From an uncultured delta proteobacterium (lineage in GTDB: Bacteria; Desulfobacterota; BSN033; UBA1163), in assembly GCA_963828805.1 (NCBI GenBank), contig CAWHGS010000019.1, forward strand, positions 7,089 through 71,088: 64,000 nt of DNA. Direction: 5' to 3'. The position numbers and the translations under genes were made by a program. The first letter of the stretch is position 1. The number at the start of each line of letters is the position of its first letter. Shown here one piece after another: positions 40,284-62,183 of this stretch. The notes under the pieces were generated by a model. That model searched no databases and had not been told where the DNA came from. It saw nothing but the letters and a program-made list of their open reading frames with translations.

Positions 40284-41573
40284 ATGCCTTTGAAATCAAT
40301 CATTCCCGAAACTCTGCGGAATTTGACTGCAGATGGACGGTTGCTATTTGCAACACGGATTGCGCGCCTCTTTGCTTACGGGTTTCTCTCCGTCATTCTG
40401 GTTCTCTACCTGGTCGAGGCCGGTTTGAGCGAACCGCAGATCGGCCTTCTCCTTACGCTCACGCTGGTCGGCGATACGATTATCTCATTATGGATTACCA
40501 CCTCGGCAGACCGGATCGGAAGACGCAACATGCTCATGGCAGGGGCGATCCTAATGGTATTTGCCGGAGTCCTGTTTGCCGTAACACGCAACTTCGTCTT
40601 TCTTCTGATTGCCGCCACGATCGGTGTCATCAGCCCCAGCGGCAATGAGGTCGGTCCATTCTTATCCATAGAACAGTCGGCGTTATCACAGATTGTGTCA
40701 AACGAACAGCGGACGCAGGTCTTTGCATGGTATAACCTGGTCGGGTCCTTCACCACGGCCCTGGGGTCCCTCAGCGGGGGTGTTCTGGTGCAGGCTCTTC
40801 AGGGAATCGGGGTGAAGCCTCTTGGAAGTTACCGGGCCATTGTCATTGGCTATGCGATCATCGGCGCGATCCTCGGGCTCCTCTTCACGCGTCTTTCTTC
40901 CACGGTGGAAATCCCTCCCGCGGAACAGGGATCCATACCAAAATCAAAGAGGTTTCTGGGTCTTCACAAGTCACGCAAGGTTGTCTTTAAGTTATCGGCC
41001 CTCTTTTCCCTCGATGCCTTTGCCGGCGGATTCGTGCTTCAGAGCATCGTCGCATACTGGTTTTCCGTCCGGTACCATGTCCAGCCGGCCCTTCTGGGAG
41101 GTATCTTCTTTGGGGCAAACATCCTGGCCGGGATCTCGGCGTTGACAGCCGCACGGGTGGCAGCCAGGATCGGATTGATCCGGACGATGGTATTCACGCA
41201 TATTCCATCCAATATTCTGCTGATCCTGGTGCCTCTCATGCCCAATTTGCCTCTTGCGATTATCGTCCTTCTCCTGCGCTTCAGTATCTCCCAGATGGAC
41301 GTGCCCACCCGCCAGTCCTATACCATGGCAGTGGTTGAGCCGGATGAGCGTTCGGCGGCGTCCGGGATTACCGGCATCGCCCGCACCACAGGGTCTTCAC
41401 TTTCCCCGGTTGTCGCAGGTCCGCTGCTGGGTCATGCAGCGATGCTGAGTATTCCATTCTTCGTCGCCGGAGGCCTCAAAATCATCTATGATCTCCTTCT
41501 GTATAGAAGCTTCAGTGCCGTTAAGCCGCCGGAAGAAAAGGCCATCCCAAGACCATTGCTCCCAAAGCCCTGA
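40284..41573 (+). CDS. MFS transporter
   Basis: 429 aa with about 12 hydrophobic segments and a DRIGRR motif after TM2. Confidence 0.8.
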   Translation: MPLKSIIPETLRNLTADGRLLFATRIARLFAYGFLSVILVLYLVEAGLSEPQIGLLLTLTLVGDTIISLWITTSADRIGRRNMLMAGAILMVFAGVLFAVTRNFVFLLIAATIGVISPSGNEVGPFLSIEQSALSQIVSNEQRTQVFAWYNLVGSFTTALGSLSGGVLVQALQGIGVKPLGSYRAIVIGYAIIGAILGLLFTRLSSTVEIPPAEQGSIPKSKRFLGLHKSRKVVFKLSALFSLDAFAGGFVLQSIVAYWFSVRYHVQPALLGGIFFGANILAGISALTAARVAARIGLIRTMVFTHIPSNILLILVPLMPNLPLAIIVLLLRFSISQMDVPTRQSYTMAVVEPDERSAASGITGIARTTGSSLSPVVAGPLLGHAAMLSIPFFVAGGLKIIYDLLLYRSFSAVKPPEEKAIPRPLLPKP

Positions 41574-41796
41574 CGGTATTTATTCGTTTGGTGGTAACAC
41601 GGGTAGCCTGAGGCGCAAACATTTTTGGACTTTGAATGCATGCCCCATGCTTCCCTTTTTTAGGCACCGTTTTCTTTCATCAACGTCTCTGTCTTGGGGT
41701 CGCGTGGAAAATTTGTCGAAAAAATCTTAATGTCCGTGAGGCGAGAACATGACTGAAAGGCTAACCCCGCTAAGCGAGATCTAACAGAGGATTGAA

Positions 41797-43344
41797 ATGA
41801 GGGAAAACAGGGGAAAATATTCTTACAAAGTTCTGTTAGGTTCACACGACTCCCGTCTGAAAAAGGGACCTGCAAGGGAGGTTGTTGACTATCTCTATTC
41901 TCGCTGGCTTCACGCGACACTTCCGGCCTTCGAGGATTTGCTGACTTTTCTGAAGGCTCACCTTGTTGAACTTCATGACAAGAAAGTGATTCCCCGAAAC
42001 GATGCACGAAAGATTCTTGAGACTTTACGATGGATTCAAAAAAAGGGGATTGATCATTTTGAACTCGATCCCAGCATCGAGGATCTGATGCCGAATATAG
42101 AAGCCATCGTCATCAGCAAACTGGGAGAATCGGCAGGCGGAAAGATTCTGACAGGAATGGCCAGGGGAGAACCCATGTATGTTTCCGCTATCCTTCTCCT
42201 TCGGAGGAAGATATTGGATTTATTGAAGGAAGTGTATGGCTTGAGAAAACTGATCATCGCGCTTGCGAGCAGGCATACCGAGACAATCATGCCCGGTTAT
42301 ACTCACGTTCAGCATGCTCAACCAACAACCCTTGGCCACTATCTTGCCTGTGTGGCTGAGGCCTTAGAAACGGATTGTACCCGCTTTGAGAATGCTTATC
42401 AAAGGGTTAACATGAGCCCGGCAGGTTACAGCAGTGCCTGGGGGACCAGCTATCCCACAGACAGGCGGCGCGTTGCATCACTTTTGGGCTTTGATTCGGT
42501 GATTGAAAATACACGATACGCCATGCTTTCTTTTGACCGGGGGATAGAAGCCCTTTCCGCTCTTACGATACTTGCCATCGATATCAATCGTTTTTCAGAT
42601 GACCTCTACTTCTGGTGCACGTTCGAATTTAACATGGTCGATATCGCTGATGAGTATGCGTCGACGAGCTACATTATGCCTCAAAAGAAAAATCCTTATG
42701 CTTTGGAGGAATATCCTGCCCTGGTGCAAAGAGTCTGCTCTGAGTTTATCAGGGTCGCCGAGCTTTCCCGTCTTGTCAGCTTTGGATTGGCAACCCATCT
42801 GAGCGGGAAAAGAACCGATATAACCATGACCCCTTCGAGAATCATCGATGATACGATCGGAGCGATTCAGATGCTACGTGGAATGGTTTCGACTTTGACG
42901 ATCAACGAGAAAGTCATGAGAGAGCGTACCGGTATCAACTTCACGCAGGGAACCGACCTTGCGGACACGCTGGTTCGGGAAAAAGGTCTCTCCTTCAGGA
43001 CAGCCCATAGAATTATCGGTGTCCTCGTTAGAGAGGCGATCCGTCGAAAAATCAGGCCAAGTGAAATCAATTCCGAAATGCTTGATCACGCAGCTCACGA
43101 GATTTTAGGTAAGCCCTTGAAACTTGCTTCACATCGTCTTCTAAGGGCCCTTGACCCGATGGAAGGAGTCAGATCCAGAAGGGGGATTGGAGGCGTTTCG
43201 CCTGAAGCTGTCAGAAATTCGCTGAAAAACCGTTTAAAGAATCTTCAGGAGGAACGACATCGCCTCAAAAAAAGAAAAAGTCAGTTGCTGGTTGCCGAGA
43301 AAAGATTGGGGACTGCTGTTCAAAAAATCTGTTCGATCGGTTAG
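41797..43344 (+). CDS. argininosuccinate-lyase-family (aspartase/fumarase superfamily) C-N lyase, divergent paralog 1
   Basis: 515 aa with PGYTHVQHAQPTTLGHY and the STSYIMPQKKNP signature loop. The N-terminus is atypical and the tail is a charged helix (LQEERHRLKKRKSQLL...). No arg genes are nearby. Confidence 0.8.
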   Translation: MRENRGKYSYKVLLGSHDSRLKKGPAREVVDYLYSRWLHATLPAFEDLLTFLKAHLVELHDKKVIPRNDARKILETLRWIQKKGIDHFELDPSIEDLMPNIEAIVISKLGESAGGKILTGMARGEPMYVSAILLLRRKILDLLKEVYGLRKLIIALASRHTETIMPGYTHVQHAQPTTLGHYLACVAEALETDCTRFENAYQRVNMSPAGYSSAWGTSYPTDRRRVASLLGFDSVIENTRYAMLSFDRGIEALSALTILAIDINRFSDDLYFWCTFEFNMVDIADEYASTSYIMPQKKNPYALEEYPALVQRVCSEFIRVAELSRLVSFGLATHLSGKRTDITMTPSRIIDDTIGAIQMLRGMVSTLTINEKVMRERTGINFTQGTDLADTLVREKGLSFRTAHRIIGVLVREAIRRKIRPSEINSEMLDHAAHEILGKPLKLASHRLLRALDPMEGVRSRRGIGGVSPEAVRNSLKNRLKNLQEERHRLKKRKSQLLVAEKRLGTAVQKICSIG

Positions 43345-43449
43345 ACTTTTTTGCAGACCCGTTGGTTTGATAAGATTCCGAATCCGAAGGCGTGATTCTT
43401 TAATCGATCCGTCAAGGCCTGTAAGAAGGTTTCAAAATAGGAGAATTAA

Positions 43450-44535
43450 TTGATGACACTTCGATTTTCGATTCTTGGGGCGGGAAACGGGGGACAGACA
43501 TTAGCGGGTGATCTCGTGCTCCGGGGGTTCAATGTGGTTGCCGTATATGACCGATTCTCAGAGATGGTCGACCCTATTCGAGAAAAAGGTGGGATTAGCC
43601 TGTTGGGAAAAGTCCTTGAGGGATTTGCGCCCATTCCATTGGCCACTACCGAAATTCGCAAGGCCGTTTTGGAAGCCGATGTCCTTTGGGTCGTTGTCCC
43701 TGCTTATGCTCATGAATACATAGCCACCTCCATGGCTCCCTACCTGCAGGAGGGTCAACTCATCGTTCTCTGTCCGGGTTATCTGGGAGGGAGTCTGCTC
43801 TTTCGACAGATATTCGATCAGATGGGATGCGGTACCAACGTTCAGCTTGCAGAGACGATGATTCTTCCCTACGCGACTCGTCTTGTCGGTCCGGCAATGG
43901 TAGGGGTAAGGGCTATTAAAAAATGGGTCGAGCTCTCCGCCTTTCCTGCCCATGCCACTGCTCTGGTAGTGAAAAAGTTGAAGCAAGCCATGGAACAATT
44001 AACCCCTGGGCCTAACATTCTCGCCACGGGGCTCAACAATCCGAATCCCATTCTTCATGTGGCTGCGGTGCTATTGAATATGGGCCGCTTCGAGTCGGAG
44101 AAAGTCTCCGACGGGTTCGATTTCCAGGATTGGTTTTCTCTTTCCATCGTACGGATTAATGACCTCATGGATCAGGAGAGACTGGCCGTGGCCGAAGGCT
44201 TTGGTTTCGCGGGACTTTCTCTGTCTGAGTTTGATCGCAGAAGCTATGCTCAGGCAAAGCAAGTGGTTCAGCCCCAGGGGCCTATTCCCCCGGGAGCCTA
44301 CAGTATTCCACAGAGATACATTACCGAGGATGTCCCGATGGGTTTAGTTCCTCTATCCCAAATGGCCCGCTTGGCCTCCATTCCTACTCCGACGATCAAC
44401 CTCATGATCCAGCTTGCCTGCCTGGTTCGGAAAGAAAATTATTGGGAGAAAGGACGGACGCTTCAAAAAATGGGCCTAGAGGGACTCAGTATTCCTCAAA
44501 TCTTGCAACGCGTGGAGACGGGAACCAAGAATTAA
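43450..44535 (+). CDS. NAD(P)-dependent opine dehydrogenase family protein
   Basis: 361 aa. N-terminal FSILGAGNGGQTLAGDL Rossmann motif and a C-terminal half with NPNPILHVAAVLLN, typical of the octopine/nopaline dehydrogenase domain. Confidence 0.75.
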   Translation: MMTLRFSILGAGNGGQTLAGDLVLRGFNVVAVYDRFSEMVDPIREKGGISLLGKVLEGFAPIPLATTEIRKAVLEADVLWVVVPAYAHEYIATSMAPYLQEGQLIVLCPGYLGGSLLFRQIFDQMGCGTNVQLAETMILPYATRLVGPAMVGVRAIKKWVELSAFPAHATALVVKKLKQAMEQLTPGPNILATGLNNPNPILHVAAVLLNMGRFESEKVSDGFDFQDWFSLSIVRINDLMDQERLAVAEGFGFAGLSLSEFDRRSYAQAKQVVQPQGPIPPGAYSIPQRYITEDVPMGLVPLSQMARLASIPTPTINLMIQLACLVRKENYWEKGRTLQKMGLEGLSIPQILQRVETGTKN

Positions 44536-44664: not shown

Positions 44665-46234
44665 ATGGATTCGAAATGGATGAAAGGGATGAGGAGATTT
44701 TGAGTCATGGTTTTGCTGTCAGGTCTAACCCTCAGTGGGCCTCCTGAAAGATCGGAAGCCAAGGAGAAACCTTTAGTCGTTGTCCAGCATGTCAGATGTA
44801 ACCTCCTTCGATCCAACCTCCAGCACCTATGGCCCCAATCGGAATTTTTACGCGAACGTCTTCGATGCCCTGACCGTTTGGGACGAAAAGGAACCGACCA
44901 AATTGGCTCCGATGTTGGCGACTTCCTGGAAAACGATTAACGACAAAACCTGGCAATTTCAACTTCGAAAAGGGATCTCTTTTACAAATGGCGAACCCTT
45001 TAACGCCCAGACTGTGAAATGGAACATTGAATGGCTCATCACGCCAGGAAAACACACGGTTGCCGGGAGCTTTTAACACGATTGAACGGGCAGAGGTCGT
45101 GAATGACCATACGGTCAATGTTATCACTGTAAAACCAGATCCCCTTTTGCCTAAACGATTTGCGGCCTATGGAGGCCAGATGACCCCCCCGGAATATATT
45201 AAGAAAGTGGGGAGAGAGGAGTTTGGTCGCAAACCCATCGGGACAGGCCCCTATATCGCTCAAGGAATGGGTGAAGGATGACCATGTCACCCTGATCCGC
45301 AACGAAAAGTATTGGGGAAGGAAACCGGATTTTCAGGAAGTGATTGTCAAACCCGTTCCGGATGGTTCCACCCGACTGAACATGCTCCTTAACGGGCGAG
45401 GCGGATCTCATCGCCGCGGTTCTTCCGGACCAGATTGACAGGATTAAAGAGAGCAAAATCGCTCATGTTGAAACAGGCCTGGGGGCAATGAACTACGAAT
45501 ATGTGATTAAATGCCAGGAAAGGGCCGCTCAGCGACAGAAGAGTCCGCCAGGCCGTGTAATTATGCCGTAAACAAGGAATTGATCCGGAACAAGCTCTGG
45601 AAAGGCTATGGCACTATTATTAACGGTGCTGTATCACGACCGGTGACTTTGGATAGAATCCTGACATGAAACCCTATCCCTACGATCCAGCCAAGGCCAG
45701 GGAGTTGATCAAGGAGGCAGGATACGAGCCGGGCCAAATCACCTTTGACGTGATGTCCCTGGCCAGTGAGAAAGAATTGACGGAAATCATCTGCGCTCAA
45801 CTGAATGAGGTTGGAATCAATGCGAAACCCCGGATCATTGAAGGTGCGGAACGGGCGAAGATCATCAAGGATGCAAGCCTTTGGGAGGATACAGGGGGTG
45901 CGTCTCTTTGATACAGGCCGGCAGTACCCTTTACGATGCCGACGGCATTCCTTTGGAGGACGAGGCACCCTGACGGACTTTATGGAAACTACTGGGAAGG
46001 TTCTCAACCCGGGCAACCCTGGGGCTTTTATGAGATGATGGAGGAAGCCCGGTACAGTTTGGATCAGGAAAAGCGAAAAAAGATTTATTTTAAAGCCAAT
46101 CAAATCGCTAAGGATGAAGCAATCTCTCTTTTCCTCATTCGAGTATACGTTTATTCACGGGGCAAGCAATCGGGTGAACTATAAGATCGACCAGGGCGGT
46201 CTTGGTCTATTTCGGCCGGATCTACAAAAAGTAG
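44665..46234 (+). pseudogene. family-5 (Opp/Dpp/Nik-type) substrate-binding protein, multiply frame-broken
   Basis: AAAGGAGG RBS before the ATG at 44665. An in-frame TGA at 44701 interrupts the signal peptide. Family-5 SBP pieces are spread over at least 8 frame switches (ORFs 44780-45076, 45027-45281, 45223-45438, 45666-45911, 45936-46184). The end coordinate is approximate. Confidence 0.7.
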
Positions 46235-46279: not shown

Positions 46280-47203
46280 ATGATTTTCAAGAAGGTGTTT
46301 CACACCGTTCTTGTTGATCTTTGCGGTCTCTACCTTTGTCTTTTGGTTCCTAAGGATTTCGGGAGATCCGGTGGCTCTGTCTGATGCCCATGGATGCGCA
46401 GAAACAGGACATTGAAGCGCTGAGAAAATCGATGGGGCTCGATGATCCCCAGTGCGTCCAGTACGTGCGGTTTATGAAGAACCTCTGCAAGGGGAGAGCT
46501 TAGGGAATTCGTTTCATTACAAACAGCCAGCCCTGGAGTTATTGGTGGAGCGAATGCCGGCGACGTTTCAGCTGGCTCTCAGCGCGATGCTCTTCGCCAT
46601 TCGTGATGGGCATTCCTTTGGGAATCATCTCCGCAGTGAAACAGGGGAAAGCTTTGGACGCGCTCTGTGTTGGATTGGCGACCATTGGCCAGTCGATTCC
46701 GCTCTTCTGGCTCGGTTTGATGTTGATGCTCATCTTTTCTGTTTTTCTCGGGATTCTGCCCACTTCGGGCCGAGGGACACTGAAGCAGTTGATTCTTCCC
46801 ACGATCACCTTGGGTGCTCTCCCCATGGCAGCCATCGTCCGGCTCTTAAGGGCAAGCATGCTGACAGGCCCTTCAGATGGATTATGTGACGGCAGCGAGG
46901 GCAAAAGGTGTCAGGGAGTTTTGGGTCGTGGTGAAACACGCTTTTCGCAACGCGGCGATTCCGGTCGTGACGTTCATCGGTCTGCAGTTTGGAGCGCTCT
47001 TTGGCGGGGCGGTTGTAACCGAGATGATCTTTGCGTGGCCGGGAGTAGGTCGGCTCGTCGTGCTCGCCATTTATAACCGGGACTACCCCCTGGTTCAGGC
47101 AACCGTGATCTTCCTATCAACCATATTTGTCACCGTCAATTTCGTTGTCGACCTCTTGATACGTCTCCTGGATCCGAGGGTGAGGGTCGGAGGAACAAAG
47201 TGA
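46280..47203 (+). pseudogene. OppB/DppB-type ABC permease, multiply frame-broken
   Basis: Pieces read as ...GDPVAL..., LGNSFHYKQPALELLVERMPATFQLALSAMLFAI, MGIPLGIISAVKQGKALD...GILPTSG and MDYVTAARAKGVREFWVVVKHAFRNA...LLDPRVR, in at least 4 frames. Confidence 0.75.
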
Positions 47204-48089
47204 CGGGCAGCATCCTACAGAGAGACCCGAATGTTTTTTAGGGAGTATCCAAACAAATTTGTTTTGGCTTCCGTCATCATGGGAGGAGCCATCTTCTGTG
47301 CCCTTTTCGCTCCCTGGTTGCGCGCCGCATGATCCCGTGAAGGCGGACCTGGGCGCCCGCCTTATTCCGCCGTTCTTCCAGAAGGGAGGAAGCTGGCAAT
47401 CATCCGCTCGGGACGGATCACATCGGCCGGGACGTTCTGAGTCGGATCATTTACGGGGCGAGAATTTCTCTTGCGGTGGGATTCGTGTCGACGTTCGTCG
47501 GATTCCTGATCGGCGGGCTCCTTGGACTCCTTTCAGGCTATTTCGGCGGAAAAACGGACAGTGCTATCACGAAACTGATGGATATCCAGTTGTCCTTTCC
47601 CTTATCCGTATTTGCGATATTTGTGGTGGGTATCATGGGCCCGAATCTCATGAACGTCATCGTCATCTGCGGGATTACGAGATGGGTCATGTTTGCACGG
47701 GTGGTGCGGGGAGAGGTTCTCTCGGTTCGAGAGAAGGAATTTATCGAAGCGGCGAGGGGTATCGGATGCTCCACGCCCCGAATCCTTCTCCGTCATATCT
47801 TTCCCAATATCATTTCAAGCGTCCTTGTTCTGGCCACCCTCAATATTGGAACCATCATCGTTCTCGAATCGACGCTCAGCTTTCTGGGGCTCGGGGTTCA
47901 GCCTCCCACTCCGAGCTGGGGAAACATGCTGAACGATGGAAAGGCCTACATGGTCCAGGCCTGGTGGATTACGGCCCTGCCAGGGTTGGCGATTATGCTC
48001 GTTGTGTTGAGTGCGAACATGATCGGAGACTACCTGAGCGATCTGGTGAACCCGTACGCAAAACAACTGATGACCACATCGAAGAATAA
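47200..48089 (+). pseudogene. OppC/DppC-type ABC permease, frame-broken
   Basis: Pieces read as ...[17 protein letters not shown]..., [22 protein letters not shown] and the long intact stretch at 47476 onward ([16 protein letters not shown]...[21 protein letters not shown]...). Both ends are approximate. Confidence 0.7.
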
Positions 48090-54993: not shown

Positions 54994-54996
54994 CGC

Positions 54997-55746: not shown

Positions 55747-55841
55747 CTGGGTCCTCCGACCGGAACGTGCCCCGTCCCGCTCTTTGCGGGATAGGCGGGG
55801 TCAAGGGGCACAATGTGAAATGAAATCACCTTACCGGGAAG

Positions 55842-55860
55842 CCCCGGCCTGTGGCCGGGG
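55842..55860 (-). promoter_or_regulatory. intercistronic GC stem-loop after SBP gene (GC-rich operon)
   Basis: CCCCGGCC TGT GGCCGGGG, a perfect 8-bp stem in the 184-bp gap between the SBP stop and the livG start. Confidence 0.5.
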
Positions 55861-55930
55861 AGCTTCGCTTGCGGGCGCAGCCGCAGATCGTTGTCGGCGC
55901 ATGGCCGGGAGCGTCCCGGCGAATGCGAGA

Positions 55931-57212
55931 TCACTGACAGTTTGTGCAGGGAGGATAATCCCGCGAGTAAACCGGCTTATTCAAGAATACCGATGGGTCA
56001 TACGTCCAGAACTGTGACACGTTGGGTAGCGTAGCGATGACCGTGTTCTGGAGTTCCCCTTTGACCCGGTCCACCCGACGGATGTACTCATTCTCGACGA
56101 CCCCGCCGTACGGATCGAAGCTGATCGGACCTCGCGGAGCGTCGGAGATCTTGACGGCTCGAATGGCATCGACGAGTTCCTTTCCCCCTCCGGGTTTCCC
56201 GCCGGTATTCTCCAACGCTTTGGCGATGACCTGACCCGTTACATAGCCCGCTTCAGCCCGGTAGCCCGGTGCATCCTTGTACTCCTCCTTGAACTTCTTA
56301 ACGAAGGCCTGGGCCTCGGGTGTCTGGAGTACCGCGCTCCAGTGGAGCACTGTGAACAGGCCCGACAGCCTCATCCCCCATGGACTTCAAGACCGCTTCA
56401 TCGGTGACGGCGGCCAATCCGTAGAGGGGGTACTTGTCCTTCAATCCAAACTCGTCCCATTGCAGCAGGAAACGAACGGCGTTACCCCCGGACTGCGCTA
56501 CGACGACGGCATCCACATCCTTCTTGATCTGAGGAAAATAGGGCGCGAAATCCGACGTGGTCTGGGGCGTCCAGATCTTCTGGACAACCTTGCCGCCCGC
56601 ATCTTCGAAGGCCCGCTGGAAACCGCCGACGTTCTCCCACCCGAAGGCGTAGTCGTAGGCGATGATGGCAACGCGCCGCTTGCCCTGGTCGTAGGCCCAC
56701 TTGCCCAACGCGTGCGCCGGCTGGCTGGAGGTCCATCCGGTGCGGATGATCCAGGGCGTGCGCTTGCGTTGAGTGATATCATCGCCGGAGACGACCGGGA
56801 ACAGGCAGGGCGCCTTTGCCCGATCGATGTAGTCTCGGACGGCATAGCCTTCGTTCGCGAGGGTCGGGCCTACGAGAAGGTCAGCCTTATCCTGCTCGAC
56901 CAGCTTGCGTGCTTTCGCCAGCGCGGTATTGGGATCGCCCGAGGTATCCTCCACGATCACCGTGATCTTTCGACCGCCTGCCGTGTAGTTGATTCCCTTG
57001 AGGAAAAGCGTCAGACCACTGAGTGTATCCTTGCCGCTTGAGGCAAAGTTGCCGGTCAGCGCGCCGTAAAACCCGAGCTTGAGGGGCGGCAGACTGCCGA
57101 CGGGGGACGGTGTGCTGGCGGCAGCAGCAACCTGCGGTGGCGCGGCCATTAGACTCGGACCTGCGACGAGGACAACGACCAGAAGCGTGAACAGGGCGTG
57201 TCTTGGTTTCAT
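55931..57212 (-). CDS. LivK-type substrate-binding protein with C-terminal CxxC (one frame break near 56360)
   Basis: ORFs 56298-57626 and 55931-56374 join as ...SMGDEAVG/LFTVLHWSAVLQTPEAQAFVKKF... when one base is removed. Start MKPRHALFTLLVVVLVAG at 57212 (ATGA overlap with the livM stop). It ends in YSRDYPPCTNCQ. Confidence 0.8.
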
Positions 57213-58237
57213 GATTTGCCTCCTGACTGGATGTGAGTTGCCGGCGTTCTCTCCACGTTCTTTCCTTGGGATCGGTCTGATCGCTGGGGAGCGCCGGAGT
57301 TGATTCGAACCATGAGACGGCTCATCATTCCCATGAGGCCGCCCGGCAGGAACATCACGGTGGCGATGTACACGACACCCAGCACCATCATCCATCGCTG
57401 GGTGACCGAACTCATGATCTGACGCATGACGACAATGACGGCTGCCCCGAGACATGGGCCAATGAGCGTGCCCGGCCCGCCGAGGATGACCATCAAGATC
57501 GCGGTCGCCGAGTTGCTGATGGCCAGGGCTTCCGGACTGACGAAACCGGTCAGGTTGGCATTGAGGATTCCTGCCAGTCCCCCGAAGAAGGCGGAGGTGA
57601 GGTACGCCAGGTACTTGTGCAGCCATGTGTGATAGCCGAGCACCTGCATGCGGATTTCCCGCTCACGGATGCCGCGCCAGCTCAGTCCGAAGGGCGAACG
57701 CACGAGCAGGCTGAGCGCCGCCACCGCGATGGCGAACACGACGAAGACGAAGTAGTAATAGGCAAGGGAGCTTTCGAGGCGTCCGACCAGGGGAAGTTCG
57801 GGGCGCATCGGGATCGATAGGCCGTTATCACCGCCTGTTACCGTAGACCACCGATAGGCCAATCCCCAGAGGGCCTGTCCGAGTGCCAGGGAAATCATGA
57901 TGAACGGCAACCCGGAGGTGCGCAGGGCGATGGCTCCGAAGATCATTGCGACCAGCAGGACCACGGCCAGTGCGAGCAGCCCGCTCCCCCAGAAGGACTG
58001 GCCCAGCCGCAGAGCGCTGATGACGGCGGCATAGGCCCCCACCCCGAAAAAGGCGGCGTGACCGAACGAGGTGTACCCCAGGTAGCCGATCAGAACGTCC
58101 AAACTCATCGCGAAGATGGCGAAGATCAGGACGGACGTGAGAACAAAGACGGGATAACTGGGCAGGAAGATCGGGAGCACCCCGAGCGCCAGGATGCTCA
58201 CGATCACCGTCAACACTTGAGCCCTTCGCCACGCCAT
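57209..58237 (-). CDS. livM: ABC permease, LivM type (GC-rich operon)
   Basis: 342-aa polytopic ORF, collinear with the paralog at 11279-12235. Confidence 0.85.
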   Translation of the reverse strand: MAWRRAQVLTVIVSILALGVLPIFLPSYPVFVLTSVLIFAIFAMSLDVLIGYLGYTSFGHAAFFGVGAYAAVISALRLGQSFWGSGLLALAVVLLVAMIFGAIALRTSGLPFIMISLALGQALWGLAYRWSTVTGGDNGLSIPMRPELPLVGRLESSLAYYYFVFVVFAIAVAALSLLVRSPFGLSWRGIREREIRMQVLGYHTWLHKYLAYLTSAFFGGLAGILNANLTGFVSPEALAISNSATAILMVILGGPGTLIGPCLGAAVIVVMRQIMSSVTQRWMMVLGVVYIATVMFLPGGLMGMMSRLMVRINSGAPQRSDRSQGKNVERTPATHIQSGGKS

Positions 58238-58240
58238 CGG

Positions 58241-59101
58241 TTAGCTCCTTGGAATCAGGCCGCTGGGGCGCACGGCGAGAATGATGATCATCGGCACGAA
58301 CAGGGTGAAATAGGAGAGGTCGGGGAACAGGGCCCGGCCGTAATTATCGAGGAGGCCGAGAATCAGGCTGCCGACGAGGGCCCCGTTGATCGACCCGATG
58401 CCGCCGACAATGACGACCACGAGCGTGAGGGGCAGTAGCTCCCAGTCGAGCCCCGGATACACGCTCAGGAACGGGGCCCCCATGACACCGGCGAAGCCGG
58501 CCAGGAGCGACCCGAACCCGAAGGTCAACATGAAGACCTTCTCAATGTTGATTCCCATTGCGCGCGCCATCTCCTGGTTGTCGACCGCGGCCCGAATGAT
58601 GGCGCCCCAGCGCGTTCGTCCCAGAATGATGTTGAGGACTACCGCAATGAGCAGGCCGCTGGTGATGATGAAGAGCCGGTAGGCAGGAAAGCGCATGATC
58701 CACAGGTCGACGGATCTCGCCAGCAGCGCCGGAGGGCGGATGGTCACCGGGTCACCGTGCCAGAGGACGAGAGACACATCGGCGATTATAAGAGCGATGC
58801 CGATGGAGACGAGCACCTGGAGATGCGTGCGACCCAGGAGCCTTCGCATAAACATGCGCTCGGTGACGAATCCGATCCCGAGACCCGTAAGCGTGCCCGC
58901 CACCAGCGCTAGGGGAAAGTTGCCCGTGGTTCGCACGACCGAATAGCCGATGTAGGAGGCGAGAAGGTAGAAGGCCCCGTGCGCCAGGTTGGCGATCTTC
59001 ATCATCCCGAGAATGAGGGAGAGGCCGGCCGACAGGAGAAAGAGCAACATGCCGTAGGCAACACCGTTGAGACTTTGAATGATCCAGAATTGCACTGCCA
59101 C
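58241..59101 (-). CDS. livH: ABC permease, LivH type (GC-rich operon)
   Basis: 286-aa polytopic ORF. The N-terminus MAVQFWIIQSLNGVAYG parallels the paralog. Confidence 0.85.
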   Translation of the reverse strand: MAVQFWIIQSLNGVAYGMLLFLLSAGLSLILGMMKIANLAHGAFYLLASYIGYSVVRTTGNFPLALVAGTLTGLGIGFVTERMFMRRLLGRTHLQVLVSIGIALIIADVSLVLWHGDPVTIRPPALLARSVDLWIMRFPAYRLFIITSGLLIAVVLNIILGRTRWGAIIRAAVDNQEMARAMGINIEKVFMLTFGFGSLLAGFAGVMGAPFLSVYPGLDWELLPLTLVVVIVGGIGSINGALVGSLILGLLDNYGRALFPDLSYFTLFVPMIIILAVRPSGLIPRS

Positions 59102-59455: not shown

Positions 59456-60847
59456 TTACAGAGGCAAATCCCTTACATTGGCCACATGATCAAGGTTTTC
59501 AATCATATCCGCCAGAGTTCGTATGCGGCCTTGAGGGGCGGACCCTTCAGCTAAAGAGTAAAATTTGTCACGCAATTCTTTGTGGCTCAAAGGATTCTCC
59601 GGATCACCCTTTGGAAAGTTCACCGTCTTCATCAAGGTTGTTCCAGTCTCCAGGCTCAAATGAATCCGACATCCCCATTCGCCGGGGTATTTCTCATCAA
59701 ATTCCTTTGTCGCGCGAATTTCAACAGGCGGGGCCTTTGACTGAAGTTCTTTATCTTCAAGTCGCTTCATGGAGAATTGTTTTGCCAGCGCTTTTCCATC
59801 CGTCAGAGCAACCGCCACTCCGTAGCGCATGCTGAATTGTGCTGCATTGGGTGAGGTCGGCCATTCTTCACTTCCGCACTGTTTTTTTGCGACGCCATAA
59901 GTCTCTATCTCTACGCCTCTGACCTGATCCGTCTTTAGGCCATGTTCCGCTTTTAGCGATAAGACCGCATCGATTGCAGCATGCATGCTTCGGCAACAGG
60001 CATAGGGTTTGATACTGATCCCTTCAATAAGGTATTCCTCACCCCACTCCTTGGTCACAGCATCGAAATCGTAATGATGACTTGTGGCAGGGAAAAGTCC
60101 TCCGTCGGAAGCTTCTAAAATGTGTGATGGACCCGTCAGGCCTGCCTGGGCCAGCTCGGCGGAGAGAACGCCATGATGGCTCGCCATACCCGCATGAAAA
60201 CGCTTGTTTGCCGCCCCATCGGCCAAAAAAGCCCAGAGGCCGCTGGACTGGGTACCTGCAAGCCCCAGGGCAGAGGTCATCTCATCTTCGGTGAGTCCCA
60301 GAAGAACTCCGGCAGAAGCAGCGGCACCGAATACTCCCAGCGTAGCCGTTGAGTGCCATCCGCGCGCACGATGTTCAGACACATTAATTGCCGCCCCCAG
60401 GCGGTGTGCCACTTCATAACCGATGACGACCGCGCGCAGCACTTCTAGGCCCGTCGCCCCCAGGTTTTCTCCAACGCCTAGGGTTGCAGGGATGATCACT
60501 GTTCCTGCATGAATCTTTGAGCTCCTGTGAACATCGTCCAGCTCCAGGGTGTGCGTCAGAATCCCATTGAAAAGGACGGAAACGAGTAAGGGCATCCTGG
60601 CATTTTGTCCCCAGACCAAAGGTGCGATACGGCCTGCCCCGGGTATGTCGCATCCGCCGGATAGTTCATTCAAGCGGCGAAAAATGTTTCGGTTCATCTC
60701 ATCCTGAGCCCCTCCCAGACCGCATCCGATCGCATCCAGAACACATTTCTTTGCTTTCACCATTGCGGAGGTTGGAATCTTGCTTGAGGGCGTATTGGAA
60801 ATGAAACGGGCAAGCGTTCTGGTCGGAGTTTCATTTTGTAAACTCAT
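59456..60847 (-). CDS. MmgE/PrpD family protein (2-methylcitrate dehydratase / iminodisuccinate epimerase family)
   Basis: 463-aa intact ORF. The N-terminus LARFISNT...KKCVLDAIGCGLGG and overall length are typical of the family. Confidence 0.8.
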   Translation of the reverse strand: MSLQNETPTRTLARFISNTPSSKIPTSAMVKAKKCVLDAIGCGLGGAQDEMNRNIFRRLNELSGGCDIPGAGRIAPLVWGQNARMPLLVSVLFNGILTHTLELDDVHRSSKIHAGTVIIPATLGVGENLGATGLEVLRAVVIGYEVAHRLGAAINVSEHRARGWHSTATLGVFGAAASAGVLLGLTEDEMTSALGLAGTQSSGLWAFLADGAANKRFHAGMASHHGVLSAELAQAGLTGPSHILEASDGGLFPATSHHYDFDAVTKEWGEEYLIEGISIKPYACCRSMHAAIDAVLSLKAEHGLKTDQVRGVEIETYGVAKKQCGSEEWPTSPNAAQFSMRYGVAVALTDGKALAKQFSMKRLEDKELQSKAPPVEIRATKEFDEKYPGEWGCRIHLSLETGTTLMKTVNFPKGDPENPLSHKELRDKFYSLAEGSAPQGRIRTLADMIENLDHVANVRDLPL

Positions 60848-60916: not shown

Positions 60917-61069
60917 TCCCCTCTTTAGCCTCCAGCCCATAGGGCTTCCGGCCTGGAGGGCAAAGAGGGGCGAGGGGAGATTTTATCATAAAGAAAGCAT
61001 TTGTTCTTAAAATCCCCCTCCATCCCCCTTTGCCTGTCTATGACAGGAAAAGGATTACCAAAGGGGGAT
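60917..61069. repeat. three consecutive palindromic G/C-tract hairpins
   Basis: CCCCTCTTTAGCCTCCAG / CTGGAGGGCAAAGAGGGG (16 of 18), GAGGGGAGATTTT / AAAATCCCCCTC, and TCCCCCTTTG ... CAAAGGGGGA (perfect 10) enclosing CCTGTC TAT GACAGG. Confidence 0.75.
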
Positions 61070-61214
61070 AATAAGGATCATAGCCATATCTTCATAAGGT
61101 TTTCACCCACTCATTTCTACGCATGAATCTGAACTTTGTTCTGAGTATACCGCAACTTAAATCGCTGCACCTCCGTTATCCTGTTCGGGTCAGAGAGATA
61201 TGGCGGACCCGGTT

Positions 61215-62183
61215 TCAAGTGAACGGATGATGCGCTTCGGTCACTCGCACCAGTCTTAATCCATCTTCCCCGGTTGCGGCGGGTGTCATCTTTCCCGTTA
61301 CAGCGTCAGCAAAGGCTTCGACTTCGCGGAAATAAAGATTTTCCGCCGGATATTCCATCTCATGGCTTTCGCCGGGGGTTCTGATTCTAAGACGGTGCGT
61401 GTCAACCCCGCGCAAAGGTCCGGTCGCCAGCATTCCACCGGTTCCAAAGATTTGAAGGTCGTTGGCGGCAATGGGCATCTCGCGGCTGCAACGAATCGAG
61501 GCTTGGCATCCATTTTCAAATTCAAGGAGGAGTGTGGTGGTTTCATCAGGCCGCCTGCTCACACGGCCCGGATAGGCGAATGCAAAAACCCGCCTGATCT
61601 GATCTCCGATGATCCATTGAACGAAGTCAATCACATGGACGCCTACGTCGGCGAGCGCACCCGCCCCGGCAAGGGCCAATTCATGGCGCCAGCCACTCAC
61701 TCTTGCTTCATGAAGGGGCGCATAACGTTGAACGGAAACCTCCCGGACAGTCCCAATGGAACCTTTCCTTATATAATCCGAGGAAGCCTGAAGTATTTTC
61801 TGGAATCGTAAATGAAGTCCTATCCGGAGCGTAATACCCGCCCCATCGCAGACGTTTAGCATTTCCTCTGCTTCCCTTGCTGTGAATGCCATCGGCTTTT
61901 GGCAAAGGACATGCTTACGGGCCCGGGCGGCAGCCAACACAATGGGGTGATGCAGGGCATTCGGGGTAGCCACATAAACGGCTTCCACCCGGGGATCCTC
62001 TATCAACTTTTCGTAGGAATAGTAAACATGATCAATCCCATGGAAAGAACCAAATTGATCCGCTCTCTCAACGACTGAATCAGCGCAGGCAACCAATTGC
62101 CCGTTGTTTGAAGCCCTGATTGCGGGTGCAATCCATTCATTGGCTAACTGGCCGAGCCCGATAATACCCCAAGAAAGCTTCAT
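61215..62183 (-). CDS. Gfo/Idh/MocA family NAD(P)-dependent oxidoreductase
   Basis: 322 aa with WGIIGLGQLANEW Rossmann start and VYVATPNALHHPIVLAAARARKHVLCQKPMA (EKP-type motif). Confidence 0.85.
   Translation of the reverse strand: MKLSWGIIGLGQLANEWIAPAIRASNNGQLVACADSVVERADQFGSFHGIDHVYYSYEKLIEDPRVEAVYVATPNALHHPIVLAAARARKHVLCQKPMAFTAREAEEMLNVCDGAGITLRIGLHLRFQKILQASSDYIRKGSIGTVREVSVQRYAPLHEARVSGWRHELALAGAGALADVGVHVIDFVQWIIGDQIRRVFAFAYPGRVSRRPDETTTLLLEFENGCQASIRCSREMPIAANDLQIFGTGGMLATGPLRGVDTHRLRIRTPGESHEMEYPAENLYFREVEAFADAVTGKMTPAATGEDGLRLVRVTEAHHPFT

What the first reader, a model, noticed from the sequence alone, without database searches (positions are those of the whole stretch)
40284..62183. 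Convergent twin operons around two ASL-family C-N lyases, an opine dehydrogenase and an MmgE/PrpD protein: candidate pathway for secondary-amine polycarboxylates
Seen in the sequence:
- The plus-strand operon carries MFS (40284), ASL-family lyase 1 (41797), opine dehydrogenase (43450), an Opp/Nik-type SBP with two permeases and two ATPases (44665-50065, broken), an MLE-subgroup enolase (50096) and an MR-like enolase (51314).
- Converging on it 42 bp away, the minus-strand operon carries Gfo/Idh/MocA (62183), MmgE/PrpD (60847), LivHMKGF (59101-54259) and ASL-family lyase 2 (54020-52509).
- Neither lyase sits with arg or pur genes. Both share an atypical N-terminus (RLKKGxAxEVV) and charged helical tails.

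Established knowledge:
- The aspartase/fumarase superfamily includes EDDS lyase, which adds amines to fumarate or removes them.
- Iminodisuccinate epimerase is an MmgE/PrpD protein.
- Opine dehydrogenases make or break N-(1-carboxyalkyl) amino acids.
- CntM-type opine dehydrogenases finish staphylopine-like metallophores, whose loci also carry an Opp/Nik importer and an MFS exporter.

Inference: the gene set predicts either catabolism of opine-like or N-(1,2-dicarboxyethyl) compounds, or a nicotianamine-synthase-independent route to an opine-type metallophore. I know of no described pathway with this composition.
Basis: partly seen in the sequence, partly recalled or inferred. Interest (0 to 1): 0.8.

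Follow-up and report, generated by a model that had tools for sequence, protein, structure and literature searches.

The report
Decaying opine-like amine-carboxylate breakdown gene cluster
This stretch carries a partly broken set of genes that most likely once imported and split small nitrogen-linked polycarboxylic acids (opine- or chelator-like compounds), built around two enzymes wrongly labelled arginine-synthesis lyases, and no pathway with this make-up turned up in four searches of the open-access paper library.

Summary
The gene inventory is real at the stated coordinates.

Neither lyase is a true ArgH:
- Both fall outside the canonical ArgH clade.
- Both lack ArgH-invariant motifs.
- Both score 311 and 426 bits on the argH model, against 564-577 for real ArgH.
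- No arg or pur genes lie in the window.

Neighbourhood conservation supports a functional unit:
- A Thermodesulfobacteriota MAG has an intact co-directional PrpD-OpDH-Opp-lyase1-lyase2-enolase cluster.
- Three metagenome contigs carry OpDH-SBP-lyase2-Opp; two of them extend to a downstream enolase and one starts with GntR.
- A Firmicutes MAG links lyase, OpDH, a TRAP importer, GntR, fumarase and malic enzyme.

Importers, GntR/LysR regulators and adjacent fumarase favour catabolism. An opine-metallophore biosynthesis reading is not supported. The substrate is unknown.

Lyase 2 keeps the full succinyl-binding pocket. Lyase 1 does not; its pocket partly parallels XcbC. The MmgE/PrpD protein lacks the tyrosine base of iminodisuccinate epimerase. 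Liv, Gfo and MFS are not conserved parts.

Verdict: a new variant of known C-N-lyase/opine catabolism, degenerating in this genome. Interest is moderate.

The parts
40284..41573 (+). MFS transporter, intact. Conserved only in the 97% relative L001, not in the more distant clusters.
   Evidence: Pfam MFS_1 4.9e-34. 96% identical in L001. dN/dS 0.17. Absent from L002, L013 and L015.
41797..43344 (+). Lyase 1: an ASL-like aspartase/fumarase-superfamily lyase of the 'LTG[MR]ARGE / TSYIMPQKKNPY' clade. It is not ArgH.
   Evidence: Lyase_1 + ASL_C2. argH model 310.7 bits against XcbC model 304.7. Motifs and tree. 73% ortholog in L002. dN/dS 0.14.
43450..44535 (+). CENDH-type NAD(P)-dependent opine dehydrogenase, intact.
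   Evidence: Octopine_DH 6e-28. PDB 1bg6 (CENDH) 9.4e-55 with no CntM hit. GAGNGG motif and invariant H203, R289, D294. Falls in clade A of the OpDH tree.
44665..46231 (+). SBP_bac_5 (Opp/Dpp/Nik-type) substrate-binding protein, a pseudogene broken over three frames.
   Evidence: tblastn of the intact L001 and L012 SBPs hits frames 1, 2 and 3. 36 indels against L001 in 44530-47203.
46290..47200 (+). OppB-type permease, a pseudogene.
   Evidence: tblastn hits in frames 1, 2 and 3.
47231..48084 (+). OppC-type permease, a pseudogene.
   Evidence: tblastn of L012 OppC hits frames 1, 2 and 3.
48143..49194 (+). OppD-type ATPase, a pseudogene.
   Evidence: tblastn hits in frames 1 and 2.
49103..50065 (+). 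OppF-type ATPase, a pseudogene.
   Evidence: tblastn hits in frames 2, 1, 2.
50096..51226 (+). Enolase 1: an MLE-subgroup enolase-superfamily enzyme, a candidate epimerase or racemase, intact.
   Evidence: MR_MLE_N + MR_MLE_C. Best PDB hit 2p88/2p8b/2p8c at 2.5e-69. 76-83% identical but broken copy in L012.
51314..52466 (+). Enolase 2: an acid-sugar-dehydratase-like (DgoD/ManD-type) enolase-superfamily enzyme, frameshifted near 51880.
   Evidence: Two ORFs. MR_MLE_N and MR_MLE_C fall on separate ORFs. The intact 375-aa ortholog in L002 is 68-74% identical and aligns in two frames.
52509..54020 (-). Lyase 2: an ArgH-like paralogue that keeps the complete succinyl-binding motifs but has an altered amine side (KKNPF, FTHSRDVAGE).
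   Evidence: Lyase_1 + ASL_C2. argH model 426 bits against 564-577 for canonical ArgH. Motifs and tree. Orthologs are embedded in OpDH-Opp operons in L013, L015 and L033, and adjacent to lyase 1 in L002. dN/dS 0.08.
54259..59101 (-). LivF-LivG-LivK(frameshifted)-LivM-LivH branched-chain-type ABC importer. Membership of the unit is doubtful.
   Evidence: Pfam. GC 0.60-0.61. Only 34-40% identical to the Liv genes near lyase 2 in L012, which are separated from it by three unrelated genes. Absent from L002, L013 and L015.
59456..60847 (-). MmgE/PrpD-family protein, a candidate isomerase, epimerase or dehydratase acting on a substituted succinate, intact.
   Evidence: Both Pfam domains. PDB IDS epimerase 1.7e-41 and B. 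subtilis IRG1 1.3e-40. H99 is conserved and Tyr145 is replaced by Arg. Non-orthologous PrpD genes occur in L002 and L005.
61215..62183 (-). Gfo/Idh/MocA oxidoreductase. No evidence that it belongs to the unit.
   Evidence: Pfam. Not found in any related locus.

Best explanation
This is a relic, partly inactivated, of a catabolic gene cluster for one or more imported secondary-amine carboxylates. Candidate substrates are opine-like N-(1-carboxyalkyl) and N-(1,2-dicarboxyethyl) compounds, or natural aminopolycarboxylates.

Proposed route, all steps inferred:
1. Uptake through an Opp-type ABC system with an SBP_bac_5 binding protein.
2. Stereochemical funnelling by enolase-superfamily enzymes and an MmgE/PrpD enzyme, acting as epimerases or isomerases.
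3. Beta-elimination by lyase 2, releasing fumarate and an amine.
4. A related elimination by lyase 1 on a substrate whose beta-substituent pocket differs.
5. NAD(P)+-dependent oxidative cleavage of a remaining N-(1-carboxyalkyl) bond by the CENDH-type opine dehydrogenase, giving a 2-oxo acid and a primary amine.
6. Entry of fumarate and the oxo acid into central metabolism.

In this genome the Opp importer, enolase 2 and LivK are pseudogenes. The lyases, the OpDH, enolase 1, the PrpD protein and the MFS look intact; purifying selection was measured for the MFS, both lyases and the OpDH. The complete pathway is therefore probably no longer functional here.

What is shown: family assignments, motif states, synteny, pseudogenisation and purifying selection.
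What is inferred: every reaction, the direction of the pathway, and the substrate class.
For: Synteny:
- L002 (Thermodesulfobacteriota MAG): an intact PrpD-OpDH-SBP5-OppBCDF-lyase1-lyase2-enolase run, then a second enolase and an M20 peptidase on the opposite strand. Lyase 1, lyase 2 and enolase 2 are 73%, 67% and 68-74% identical to the window's.
- L015: GntR-OpDH-SBP5-lyase2-OppBCDF-enolase. L013 and L033 share the OpDH-SBP5-lyase2-OppB core; L013 also has OppCDF and a downstream enolase.
- L014 (Firmicutes MAG): fumarase a/b, malic enzyme, lyase, GntR, TAXI-TRAP importer, OpDH.
- L011: SBP5-GntR-OppBC, three ASL-like lyases, class I fumarase, a PALP enzyme.
- Lyase-1 clade members at 53-57% identity sit in LysR-TctC-lyase units.
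- Plasmids of cultured bacteria carry 'argH' genes embedded in ABC-importer operons.
- CENDH-like OpDHs on plasmids sit in regulator-importer-OpDH units.

Non-orthologous replacement: the orthologous lyases are paired with OpDHs from two different clades (34% identity) and with PrpDs of 26% identity. This argues that the activities, not just the genes, are coupled.

Not ArgH: motifs and tree, model-score calibration, and no arg or pur genes.

Lyase 2 keeps S111, R112, N113, S280, S281 and N288 of the fumarate pocket.

Selection: dN/dS is 0.08-0.21 for MFS, lyase 1, OpDH and lyase 2.
Against: - No substrate is identified and no enzyme of these clades has been characterised.
- Only 1 of 80 metagenomic loci around OpDH relatives holds an ASL-like lyase. 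Coupling is confined to two small OpDH clades.
- Lyase 1 has S111A, N113G and S281Y in the beta-carboxylate pocket, so fumarate release by it is doubtful.
- The PrpD protein lacks the Tyr base of IDS epimerase.
- AFS lyases and opine dehydrogenases are reversible, so direction rests on context only.
- Importers would also serve metallophore re-uptake.
- The intact full cluster was seen in only one other genome (L002).
- Relatives L001 and L012 carry contig names of the 'contig_N' form, which suggests long-read assemblies to me (my reading; no tool confirmed it), so some of their frameshifts may be sequencing errors.
Confidence: 0.55

Rival explanations
1. Biosynthesis of an opine-type or aminopolycarboxylate metallophore without nicotianamine synthase. 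A lyase adds an amine to fumarate, the OpDH reductively condenses a 2-oxo acid onto a second amine, the MFS exports the product and Opp re-imports the metal complex.
For: - The gene order MFS-lyase-OpDH-OppABCDF resembles the cnt operon (order from my knowledge; genes).
- EDDS lyase readily runs in the synthetic direction.
- AFS lyases are used biosynthetically in the XcbC/XcbD pathway.
Against: - The 40-62 kb region holds no CntL/NAS-like or CntK-like gene; every sizeable ORF is assigned to another family.
- The OpDH matches CENDH at 9e-55 and no CntM structure at E<=0.01.
- The SBP's best matches are 5u4o, AccA and YliB. The chains I take to be CntA (5yh5/5yhe, deposited as 'nickel ABC transporter substrate-binding protein') reach only 1e-21.
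- The MFS is missing from L002, L013 and L015.
- Relatives carry GntR or LysR regulators, and fumarase and malic enzyme next to the lyase.
- TctC and TRAP importers replace Opp in other members.
Confidence: 0.08
2. There is no joint pathway. The lyases are redundant or specialised ArgH paralogues, possibly still cleaving argininosuccinate, and the adjacency with OpDH, Opp, enolases and PrpD is fortuitous in a rearranged, IS-rich, decaying genome region.
For: - Both lyases exceed the TIGR00838 argH cut-off.
- The region is a synteny breakpoint with repeats; relatives carry IS elements and many pseudogenes.
- Liv, Gfo and MFS are not conserved neighbours.
- Most OpDH relatives lack lyases nearby.
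Against: - The same family combination recurs in at least five independent loci from different lineages, with different gene orders and non-orthologous members.
- ArgH-invariant residues are replaced: NPD becomes NPY or NPF, YN[KR]D[LM]QE becomes THLSG or THSRDVAGE, and the N-terminal S..FD motif is absent.
- An EDDS-lyase relative scores 442 bits on the same argH model, so passing the cut-off is not diagnostic.
Confidence: 0.1
3. A stereo-inversion or salvage route rather than carbon catabolism. One lyase adds an amino acid or dipeptide to fumarate. The resulting N-succino intermediate is epimerised by the enolase-superfamily or PrpD enzymes. The second lyase then releases the inverted amine. 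This parallels the N-succinyl-amino-acid racemase pathway of Bacillus cereus BC0371.
For: - Two lyases of different clades are conserved together with enolase 2.
- Enolase 1's best solved relative is 2p88, which I recall as the N-succinyl-Arg/Lys racemase BC0371. That activity is confirmed in PMC2948282.
- An M20 peptidase lies next to the cluster in L002.
- The importer is of the peptide type.
Against: - It gives no role to the OpDH, which is the most consistently linked partner of lyase 2.
- L013, L015 and L033 have only one lyase.
- Fumarase and malic enzyme linkage points to net fumarate production.
- The link between PDB entry 2p88 and BC0371 is from memory.
Confidence: 0.1

Closest known systems
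EDDS lyase of Chelativorans sp. BNC1 (PDB 6G3D-6G3I, 6RX8)
   Same: - Belongs to the ASL branch of the aspartase/fumarase superfamily.
- About 500 aa, with the same C-terminal helical extension.
- Catalytic Ser280, Lys and Asn of the SS loop are conserved.
- It is the best solved match of lyase 1 (203-205 bits).
- It has a catabolic role, releasing fumarate from a secondary-amine polycarboxylate.
   Different: - Only 28% (lyase 1) and 33% (lyase 2) identical, no closer than canonical ArgH is to EDDS lyase.
- Amine-pocket residues D290 and Y320 are replaced: Y and not alignable in lyase 1, F and H in lyase 2.
- Q159 is His in both.
- Lyase 1 also changes S111, N113 and S281.
- Both fall in separate clades from EDDS lyase in the NJ tree.
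Iminodisuccinate degradation of Agrobacterium tumefaciens BY6 (IDS epimerase, MmgE/PrpD family, plus a stereoselective C-N lyase)
   Same: - An MmgE/PrpD protein is combined with fumarate-type C-N lyases.
- IDS epimerase is the best solved match of the window's PrpD (1.7e-41).
- The proposed base His99 is conserved.
   Different: - The proposed second base Tyr145 is Arg here, and is also absent in the L002 and L005 PrpDs.
- B. subtilis IRG1 scores equally well.
- The IDS system as cited comprises only an epimerase and a C-N lyase; that it has no opine dehydrogenase, enolases or Opp importer is from my knowledge.
N-(1-D-carboxyethyl)-L-norvaline dehydrogenase (CENDH, Arthrobacter sp. 1C, PDB 1BG6) and bacterial regulator-importer-OpDH units
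   Same: - The OpDH matches CENDH at 9.4e-55 over its full length.
- It has the Rossmann GAGNGG motif and the invariant His/Arg/Asp set.
- Plasmid-borne relatives sit with a regulator and an importer.
   Different: - Here, and in two small OpDH clades, the enzyme is coupled to ASL-like lyases and enolases.
- That coupling is absent from 79 of 80 sampled OpDH loci.
Staphylopine-type cnt operon (CntKLM, CntABCDF, CntE)
   Same: An opine dehydrogenase, an Opp/Nik-type ABC importer and an MFS transporter lie in one stretch.
   Different: - No nicotianamine-synthase-like CntL and no CntK.
- The OpDH is not CntM-like.
- The SBP is not specifically CntA-like.
- Relatives have catabolic-type regulators and fumarase.
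XcbC/XcbD of bacterial coenzyme M biosynthesis (Xanthobacter autotrophicus Py2)
   Same: - Two aspartase/fumarase-superfamily lyases lie side by side with non-canonical substrates.
- Lyase 1 scores nearly as high on the XcbC model (304.7 bits) as on argH (310.7 bits).
- Lyase 1 shares S111A, D114E and the NPYAL motif with XcbC.
   Different: - Only 27% identical.
- No phosphosulfolactate synthase and no ACC-deaminase-like (PLP-dependent) XcbE nearby.
- XcbC has Arg and Lys where lyase 1 has Gly and Tyr.
Argininosuccinate lyase (ArgH, EC 4.3.2.1)
   Same: Same fold, same Pfam domains, same catalytic Ser/His/Lys. Public annotations call these proteins ArgH.
   Different: - Outside the canonical clade.
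- ArgH-invariant motifs are replaced.
- No arg context.
- Embedded in importer and OpDH operons.

Membership tests
Aspartase/fumarase superfamily (class II lyases) | Lyase_1 domain with the SS-loop signature GSSxMPxKxN, and the catalytic Ser, the T-H pair and Lys. | tested here: met
   - Pfam Lyase_1 at 2.4e-41 and 6.9e-50.
- Lyase 1 has TSYIMPQKKNP and GYTHVQHA.
- Lyase 2 has ISSIMPQKKNP and GYTHLQHA.
Bona fide argininosuccinate lyase (ArgH) | Score on the TIGR00838 equivalog model comparable to genuine ArgH. | tested here: inconclusive
   - Both exceed the 279.5-bit cut-off (310.7 and 426.0).
- Canonical ArgH scores 564-577 bits.
- An EDDS-lyase relative scores 442 bits.
Bona fide argininosuccinate lyase (ArgH) | ArgH-invariant motifs: SRNDQ/EV, KKNPD, YN[KRL]D[LM]QE, and the N-terminal S..FD motif. 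| tested here: not met
   - Lyase 1: MARGEPM, KKNPY, THLSG.
- Lyase 2: SRNDLI, KKNPF, THSRDVAGE.
- Both N-termini read RLKKGxAxEVV instead.
- The roles of these residues in argininosuccinate binding are from memory.
Bona fide argininosuccinate lyase (ArgH) | Nests within the clade of canonical ArgH sequences. | tested here: not met
   NJ tree of 60 sequences. The canonical clade (E. coli, Thermus, archaeal) excludes both lyases. The tree has no bootstrap support, so this is indicative only.
Bona fide argininosuccinate lyase (ArgH) | Genomic association with arginine biosynthesis, or being the only argH of the genome. | tested here: inconclusive
   No arg genes in the 64-kb window. The rest of the genome is not available.
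EDDS lyase | Beta-carboxylate pocket Ser111/Arg112/Ser281 and catalytic Ser280 (PMC7586795). | tested here: inconclusive
   Lyase 2 has S, R, S, S, all conserved. Lyase 1 has A, R, Y, S, so only Arg112 and Ser280 are conserved.
EDDS lyase | Amine-pocket residues Asn288, Asp290 and Tyr320, and Gln159 (PMC6973171, PMC12363623). | tested here: not met
   Asn288 is kept. Asp290 is Tyr in lyase 1 and Phe in lyase 2. Tyr320 is not alignable in lyase 1 and is His in lyase 2. Gln159 is His in both.
Opine dehydrogenase, CENDH type (PF02317) | Octopine_DH helical domain above the Pfam cut-off, an N-terminal GxGxxG Rossmann motif, and a conserved His/Arg/Asp catalytic set. | tested here: met
   - 98.2 bits against a cut-off of 30.
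- ILGAGNGGQ motif.
- H203, R289 and D294 are invariant in a 40-sequence alignment.
- 1bg6 matches at 9.4e-55 over residues 5-354.
- The catalytic roles of these residues are from memory.
CntM-type opine metallophore dehydrogenase / cnt locus | CntM-like dehydrogenase together with a nicotianamine-synthase-like CntL. | tested here: not met
   No PDB hit other than CENDH and scallop octopine DH at E<=0.01. No NCBIfam equivalog hit. No NAS-like ORF in 40-62 kb.
Iminodisuccinate epimerase (MmgE/PrpD family) | MmgE_PrpD N- and C-terminal domains plus the proposed bases His99 and Tyr145 (PMC7347537). | tested here: not met
   Both domains are present. His99 is conserved. The Tyr position is Arg (SEHRARGWH against KGHYLAGWH).
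Enolase superfamily, MLE subgroup (racemase/epimerase/cycloisomerase) | MR_MLE_N and MR_MLE_C domains, a KxK motif and a second Lys base. | tested here: met
   - Pfam 1.5e-21 and 5.1e-60.
- The sequence shows KIIKIKVG and SVKVIKSGG. The interpretation of these motifs is from memory.
- Best PDB hit 2p88 at 2.5e-69.
Functional Opp-type ABC importer | Intact reading frames for the SBP, two permeases and two ATPases. | tested here: not met
   - All five genes are split over two or three frames.
- 87 mostly 1-nt, non-homopolymer indels against the 97% relative lie in this stretch, compared with 1 inside the MFS, lyase 1 and OpDH coding regions.

The most novel reading that the evidence does not exclude
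The ArgH-annotated lyase-1 and lyase-2 clades, with clade-specific opine dehydrogenases, enolase-superfamily enzymes and Opp, TRAP or TctC importers, make up an undescribed pathway, seen here in metagenomes and MAGs that include Thermodesulfobacteriota and Firmicutes. It would mineralise natural secondary-amine polycarboxylates: opines of invertebrates or plants, or aminopolycarboxylate metallophores of the EDDS, aspergillomarasmine or iminodisuccinate type. The lyase-1 clade would catalyse a new elimination, because its beta-substituent pocket is remodelled in a way partly parallel to XcbC, and would release something other than fumarate.
Probability: 0.3. Interest if true: 0.7.

Novelty: new variant of a known kind. 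Interest (0 to 1): 0.55.

Why it matters
- If the reading is right, many proteins annotated 'argininosuccinate lyase' in genomes, plasmids and metagenomes are C-N lyases of carboxylate-amine catabolism. These are the roughly 500-aa forms embedded in importer operons.
- The module would point to an unrecognised route by which anaerobes recycle opines or natural chelators. That bears on metal bioavailability and on the fate of biodegradable chelators such as EDDS and IDS.
- The lyases are relatives of EDDS lyase, which is already a valuable biocatalyst for N-substituted aspartic acids. The different amine pockets (Tyr or Phe at position 290, His at 320) and the remodelled pocket of lyase 1 would widen that toolbox.
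- For this particular genome the finding matters less, because the locus is decaying.

Tried and rejected
- **Exact look-ups** of the window's lyase 1 and OpDH found nothing on record.
- **The genome-contig scan** with lyase 1 returned only two loci. The window's species is not among the GTDB representatives.
- **General OpDH-lyase coupling** was tested with 80 metagenomic OpDH loci and rejected. One of 80 has a lyase. 47 of 80 instead carry a B12-binding, MutE-like neighbour. Coupling is confined to two OpDH clades.
- **Sequencing error** as the cause of the Opp frameshifts was considered and rejected.
  - Indels against the 97% relative are concentrated 87 to 1 in Opp compared with the MFS, lyase 1 and OpDH coding sequence.
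  - They are mostly outside homopolymers.
  - They come with higher substitution divergence.
  - Error cannot be excluded for the single frameshifts in enolase 2 and LivK.
- **ArgH membership, EDDS-lyase orthology, IDS-epimerase membership and a cnt-like locus** were each tested by residues or hits and not met.
- **Ligand of the binding protein:** PDB matches (5u4o, AccA, YliB, DppA, NikA) are not informative.
- **Rfam** found nothing in the window.
- **Promoter and terminator scans** were at shuffle level.
- **Literature:** four searches for a described pathway with this composition found none. A published list of argininosuccinate-contacting residues could not be retrieved. Two papers were not held.
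- **Structure prediction** was not run, because the tools return no pocket geometry.

Full report
**1. Observation**

- Plus strand:
  - MFS, 40284-41573.
  - ASL-like lyase 1, 41797-43344.
  - Opine dehydrogenase, 43450-44535.
  - Opp-type ABC system, about 44665-50065.
  - MLE-type enolase, 50096-51226.
  - A second, acid-sugar-dehydratase-like enolase, from 51314.
- Minus strand, converging 42 bp away:
  - ASL-like lyase 2, 54020-52509.
  - LivF, G, K, M, H.
  - An MmgE/PrpD protein, 60847-59456.
  - A Gfo/Idh/MocA oxidoreductase, 62183-61215.

The two lyases are 34% identical. They share the RLKKGxAxEVV N-terminus and a charged C-terminal tail. The larger ORFs scanned by Pfam across the window include no arg or pur gene.

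**2. State of the genes**

All five Opp genes are spread over two or three frames. The second enolase is frameshifted near 51880. LivK is split in two.

I compared the DNA with a 97% relative, L001:
- The MFS-lyase1-OpDH stretch is 94.8% identical. Only one indel lies inside coding sequence.
- The Opp stretch is 89-91.5% identical with 87 indels. These are mostly single bases outside homopolymers.

This distribution is what relaxed selection gives, not uniform sequencing error. Conversely, dN/dS is 0.17 for MFS, 0.14 for lyase 1, 0.21 for OpDH and 0.08 for lyase 2.

The relatives decay differently:
- L001 has an IS21 element between OpDH and the SBP, and a split OpDH.
- L012 keeps lyase 2 but has only a 64-residue OpDH remnant, broken enolases, and no lyase 1 or MFS within the 10 kb examined on either side.

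The locus is therefore degenerating in this lineage. One caution: L001 and L012 come from assemblies with 'contig_N' names, which I take to mean long-read assembly (not confirmed by any tool). Some of their frameshifts may be errors.

**3. The lyases are not ArgH**

Both lyases pass the lenient TIGR00838 cut-off of 279.5 bits, with 310.7 and 426 bits. For comparison:
- Canonical ArgH scores 564-577 bits.
- An EDDS-lyase relative scores 442 bits.
- Lyase-1 clade members score 311-318 bits.

In an alignment numbered on EDDS lyase, canonical ArgH shows SRNDQ/EV, KKNPD and YN[KR]D[LM]QE. The two lyases differ:
- Lyase 2 and its clade show SRNDL, KKNPF and FTHSRDVAGE.
- Lyase 1 and its clade show LTG[MR]ARGE, TSYIMPQKKNPY and SFGLATHLSG.

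Neither has the ArgH N-terminal motif. An NJ tree places both outside the canonical ArgH clade:
- Lyase 1 groups with an 'RGD/RGE' clade that includes the three tandem lyases of L011.
- Lyase 2 lies in a broad clade of roughly 500-aa 'ArgH' paralogues.

The tree has no support values.

**4. Relation to EDDS lyase and XcbC**

EDDS lyase is the best solved match of lyase 1, at 203-205 bits against 183 for Thermus ArgH. The PDB entries are deposited as 'argininosuccinate lyase'; their identity as EDDS lyase is confirmed by PMC6973171. The alignment runs through the C-terminal helical tail.

Identity is low, however: 28% for lyase 1 and 33% for lyase 2. That is no higher than EDDS lyase against ArgH.

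Residue states, using roles published for EDDS lyase:

| Residue group | Lyase 2 | Lyase 1 |
|---|---|---|
| Catalytic Ser280 | kept | kept |
| Beta-carboxylate pocket S111 / R112 / S281 | all kept | A / R / Y |
| N113 | kept | G |
| Amine pocket D290 | F | Y |
| Amine pocket Y320 | H | not alignable |

Lyase 1's changes partly parallel XcbC of Xanthobacter (ARARRE, SKILPQKRNPYALA). XcbC eliminates phosphate from phosphosulfolactate. Fumarate release is thus well grounded for lyase 2 and doubtful for lyase 1.

**5. The other enzymes**

- **OpDH.**
  - It matches CENDH (1bg6) at 9.4e-55 and scallop octopine dehydrogenase weakly. No CntM structure matches.
  - The Rossmann motif and an invariant His/Arg/Asp set are present.
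- **MmgE/PrpD protein.**
  - It matches IDS epimerase (1.7e-41) and B. subtilis IRG1 (1.3e-40) equally well.
  - His99 is conserved, but the proposed second base Tyr145 is Arg. It is also missing in the PrpDs of L002 and L005.
- **Enolase 1.**
  - Its best solved relative is 2p88/2p8b/2p8c.
  - I recall this as the N-succinyl-Arg/Lys racemase BC0371. The activity is confirmed in PMC2948282, but the link to the PDB entry is from memory.
- **Enolase 2.** It matches only uncharacterised 'putative dehydratases'.
- **Binding protein.** I used the intact L001 ortholog. It matches 5u4o, AccA, YliB, DppA and NikA. None is informative about the ligand.

**6. Neighbourhood conservation**

This is the main evidence.

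- **L002**, an uncultured Thermodesulfobacteriota MAG.
  - It holds an intact run PrpD-OpDH-SBP5-OppB-OppC-OppD-OppF-lyase1-lyase2-enolase, with a second enolase and an M20 peptidase on the opposite strand.
  - Lyase 1 (73%), lyase 2 (67%) and enolase 2 (68-74%) are orthologous to the window's.
  - OpDH (34%), PrpD (26%), the MLE-type enolase (35%) and Opp (30-50%) are members of the same families but not orthologs.
- **Lyase-2 orthologs at 65-67% identity.**
  - L015 reads GntR-OpDH-SBP5-lyase2-OppBCDF-enolase.
  - L013 reads OpDH-SBP5-lyase2-OppBCDF, then an unassigned gene and an enolase.
  - L033, a 5.6-kb contig, shows only OpDH-SBP5-lyase2-OppB.
- **L014**, a Firmicutes MAG, links fumarase a/b, malic enzyme, an ASL-like lyase, GntR, a TAXI-TRAP importer and an OpDH.
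- **L011** has SBP5-GntR-OppBC, three tandem ASL-like lyases, class I fumarase and a PLP enzyme.
- **Lyase-1 clade members at 53-57% identity** sit in LysR-TctC-lyase units, once with PrpD genes nearby.
- **Plasmids of cultured bacteria.**
  - 'argH' genes lie inside ABC-importer operons in a Geminicoccaceae bacterium and in Agrobacterium vitis.
  - CENDH-like OpDHs lie in regulator-importer-OpDH units.

**7. A negative result that limits the claim**

I scanned metagenome contigs with an OpDH alignment and obtained 80 loci. Only one contains an ASL-like lyase and four contain an SBP5. 47 instead have a conserved 542-aa B12-binding, MutE-like neighbour.

In the OpDH tree, the lyase- or importer-linked enzymes form two separate small clades:
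- Clade A: window, L016, L017, L018, L014.
- Clade B: L002, L013, L015, L033.

Coupling is therefore not a property of the OpDH family. The same orthologous lyases are nevertheless paired with OpDHs from two different clades, which argues for coupling of the activities.

**8. Direction and mechanism**

Catabolism is favoured by four observations:
- The invariable presence of uptake systems of four different types (Opp, TAXI-TRAP, TctC, and possibly Liv).
- GntR or LysR regulators.
- Fumarase and malic enzyme next to the lyases.
- The absence of the MFS from all but the closest relative.

The metallophore-biosynthesis reading lacks CntL and CntK, a CntM-like dehydrogenase and a CntA-like SBP.

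I propose these steps, all inferred:
1. Import.
2. Epimerisation or isomerisation by the enolase-superfamily and PrpD enzymes.
3. Fumarate release by lyase 2.
4. A related elimination by lyase 1.
5. Oxidative C-N cleavage by the OpDH.

The substrate is unknown. Candidates are opines and natural aminopolycarboxylates.

Liv, Gfo and probably MFS are not established members:
- The Liv block has a foreign GC content (0.60-0.61).
- It is not orthologous to the Liv genes near lyase 2 in L012.

**9. Novelty**

Four full-text searches aimed at a pathway combining these families found none. The known pieces are EDDS lyase, the IDS epimerase plus lyase system, and CENDH.

The module is best described as a new variant of known C-N-lyase and opine catabolism, carried by proteins that public annotation calls ArgH. 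In this window it is a decaying copy, which lowers its value as an experimental entry point. L002 and L015 are better ones.

Noticed in passing
window 5161-6870: An aldehyde:ferredoxin oxidoreductase gene (AFOR_N + AFOR_C) is split into three consecutive ORFs. This is another apparent pseudogene, outside the finding.
   Followed up: partly
window 39820-40130: A cluster of short palindromic or GC-rich repeats (CATTCCGGCGAAAGCCGGAATCC; CCCTCTTTGCCAAAGGGGGGCAGGGGGGGATTTT). It lies just upstream of position 40152, where similarity to the 97% relative L001 begins. It looks like a MITE-like element at a rearrangement breakpoint.
   Followed up: partly
window 54000-58000: The LivF-G-K-M block has GC 0.60-0.61 against about 0.50 for flanking genes, which suggests recent acquisition. 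A second, intact Liv-type system lies at 8380-13134.
   Followed up: partly
L016-L095 (metagenome loci around OpDH relatives): 47 of 80 loci carry a conserved 542-aa gene with a B12-binding domain and weak methylaspartate-mutase E similarity next to the opine-dehydrogenase homolog. It is often accompanied by an ATP-grasp ligase (11 loci), an asparagine synthase (9) or an ornithine cyclodeaminase (6). This is a different and apparently undescribed context for this dehydrogenase family.
   Followed up: partly
L002 3510-5192 (also the 560/543-aa SBPs of L013 and L015): This SBP_bac_5 protein aligns to solved peptide-binding proteins in swapped order. Residues 254-539 match chain residues about 46-322, and residues 45-167 match residues 411-544 of 2d5w. 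This suggests a circularly permuted binding protein or an unusual N-terminal addition.
   Followed up: no
L011 2543-14282: SBP5-GntR-OppB-OppC is followed by three tandem ASL-like lyases, class I fumarase alpha and beta subunits, and a PLP (PALP) enzyme. This looks like a multi-lyase catabolic cluster in its own right.
   Followed up: partly
L001 2881-4236 and 13167-15418; L012: Close relatives of the window carry IS elements (DDE_Tnp_1, IS21 IstA/IstB) and many split genes (AMP-binding, OpDH, OppC, OppF, enolases). This points either to a pseudogene-rich, IS-expanding lineage or to error-prone long-read assemblies.
   Followed up: partly
L097 (Geminicoccaceae plasmid CP122394.1, 18277-33624): An 'argH' gene lies inside an ABC importer operon. 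It is followed by two CoA transferases, an enoyl-CoA hydratase, an adenylosuccinate-lyase-family protein and an MR/MLE enzyme. This is a cultured-organism example of two AFS lyases plus an enolase beside an importer, and could be tested experimentally.
   Followed up: no
window 1-3877 and 35834-39484: Two separate sets of molybdenum hydroxylase (xanthine-dehydrogenase-family) genes flank the region. One of them lies next to a DctPQM TRAP transporter at 32677-35684.
   Followed up: no
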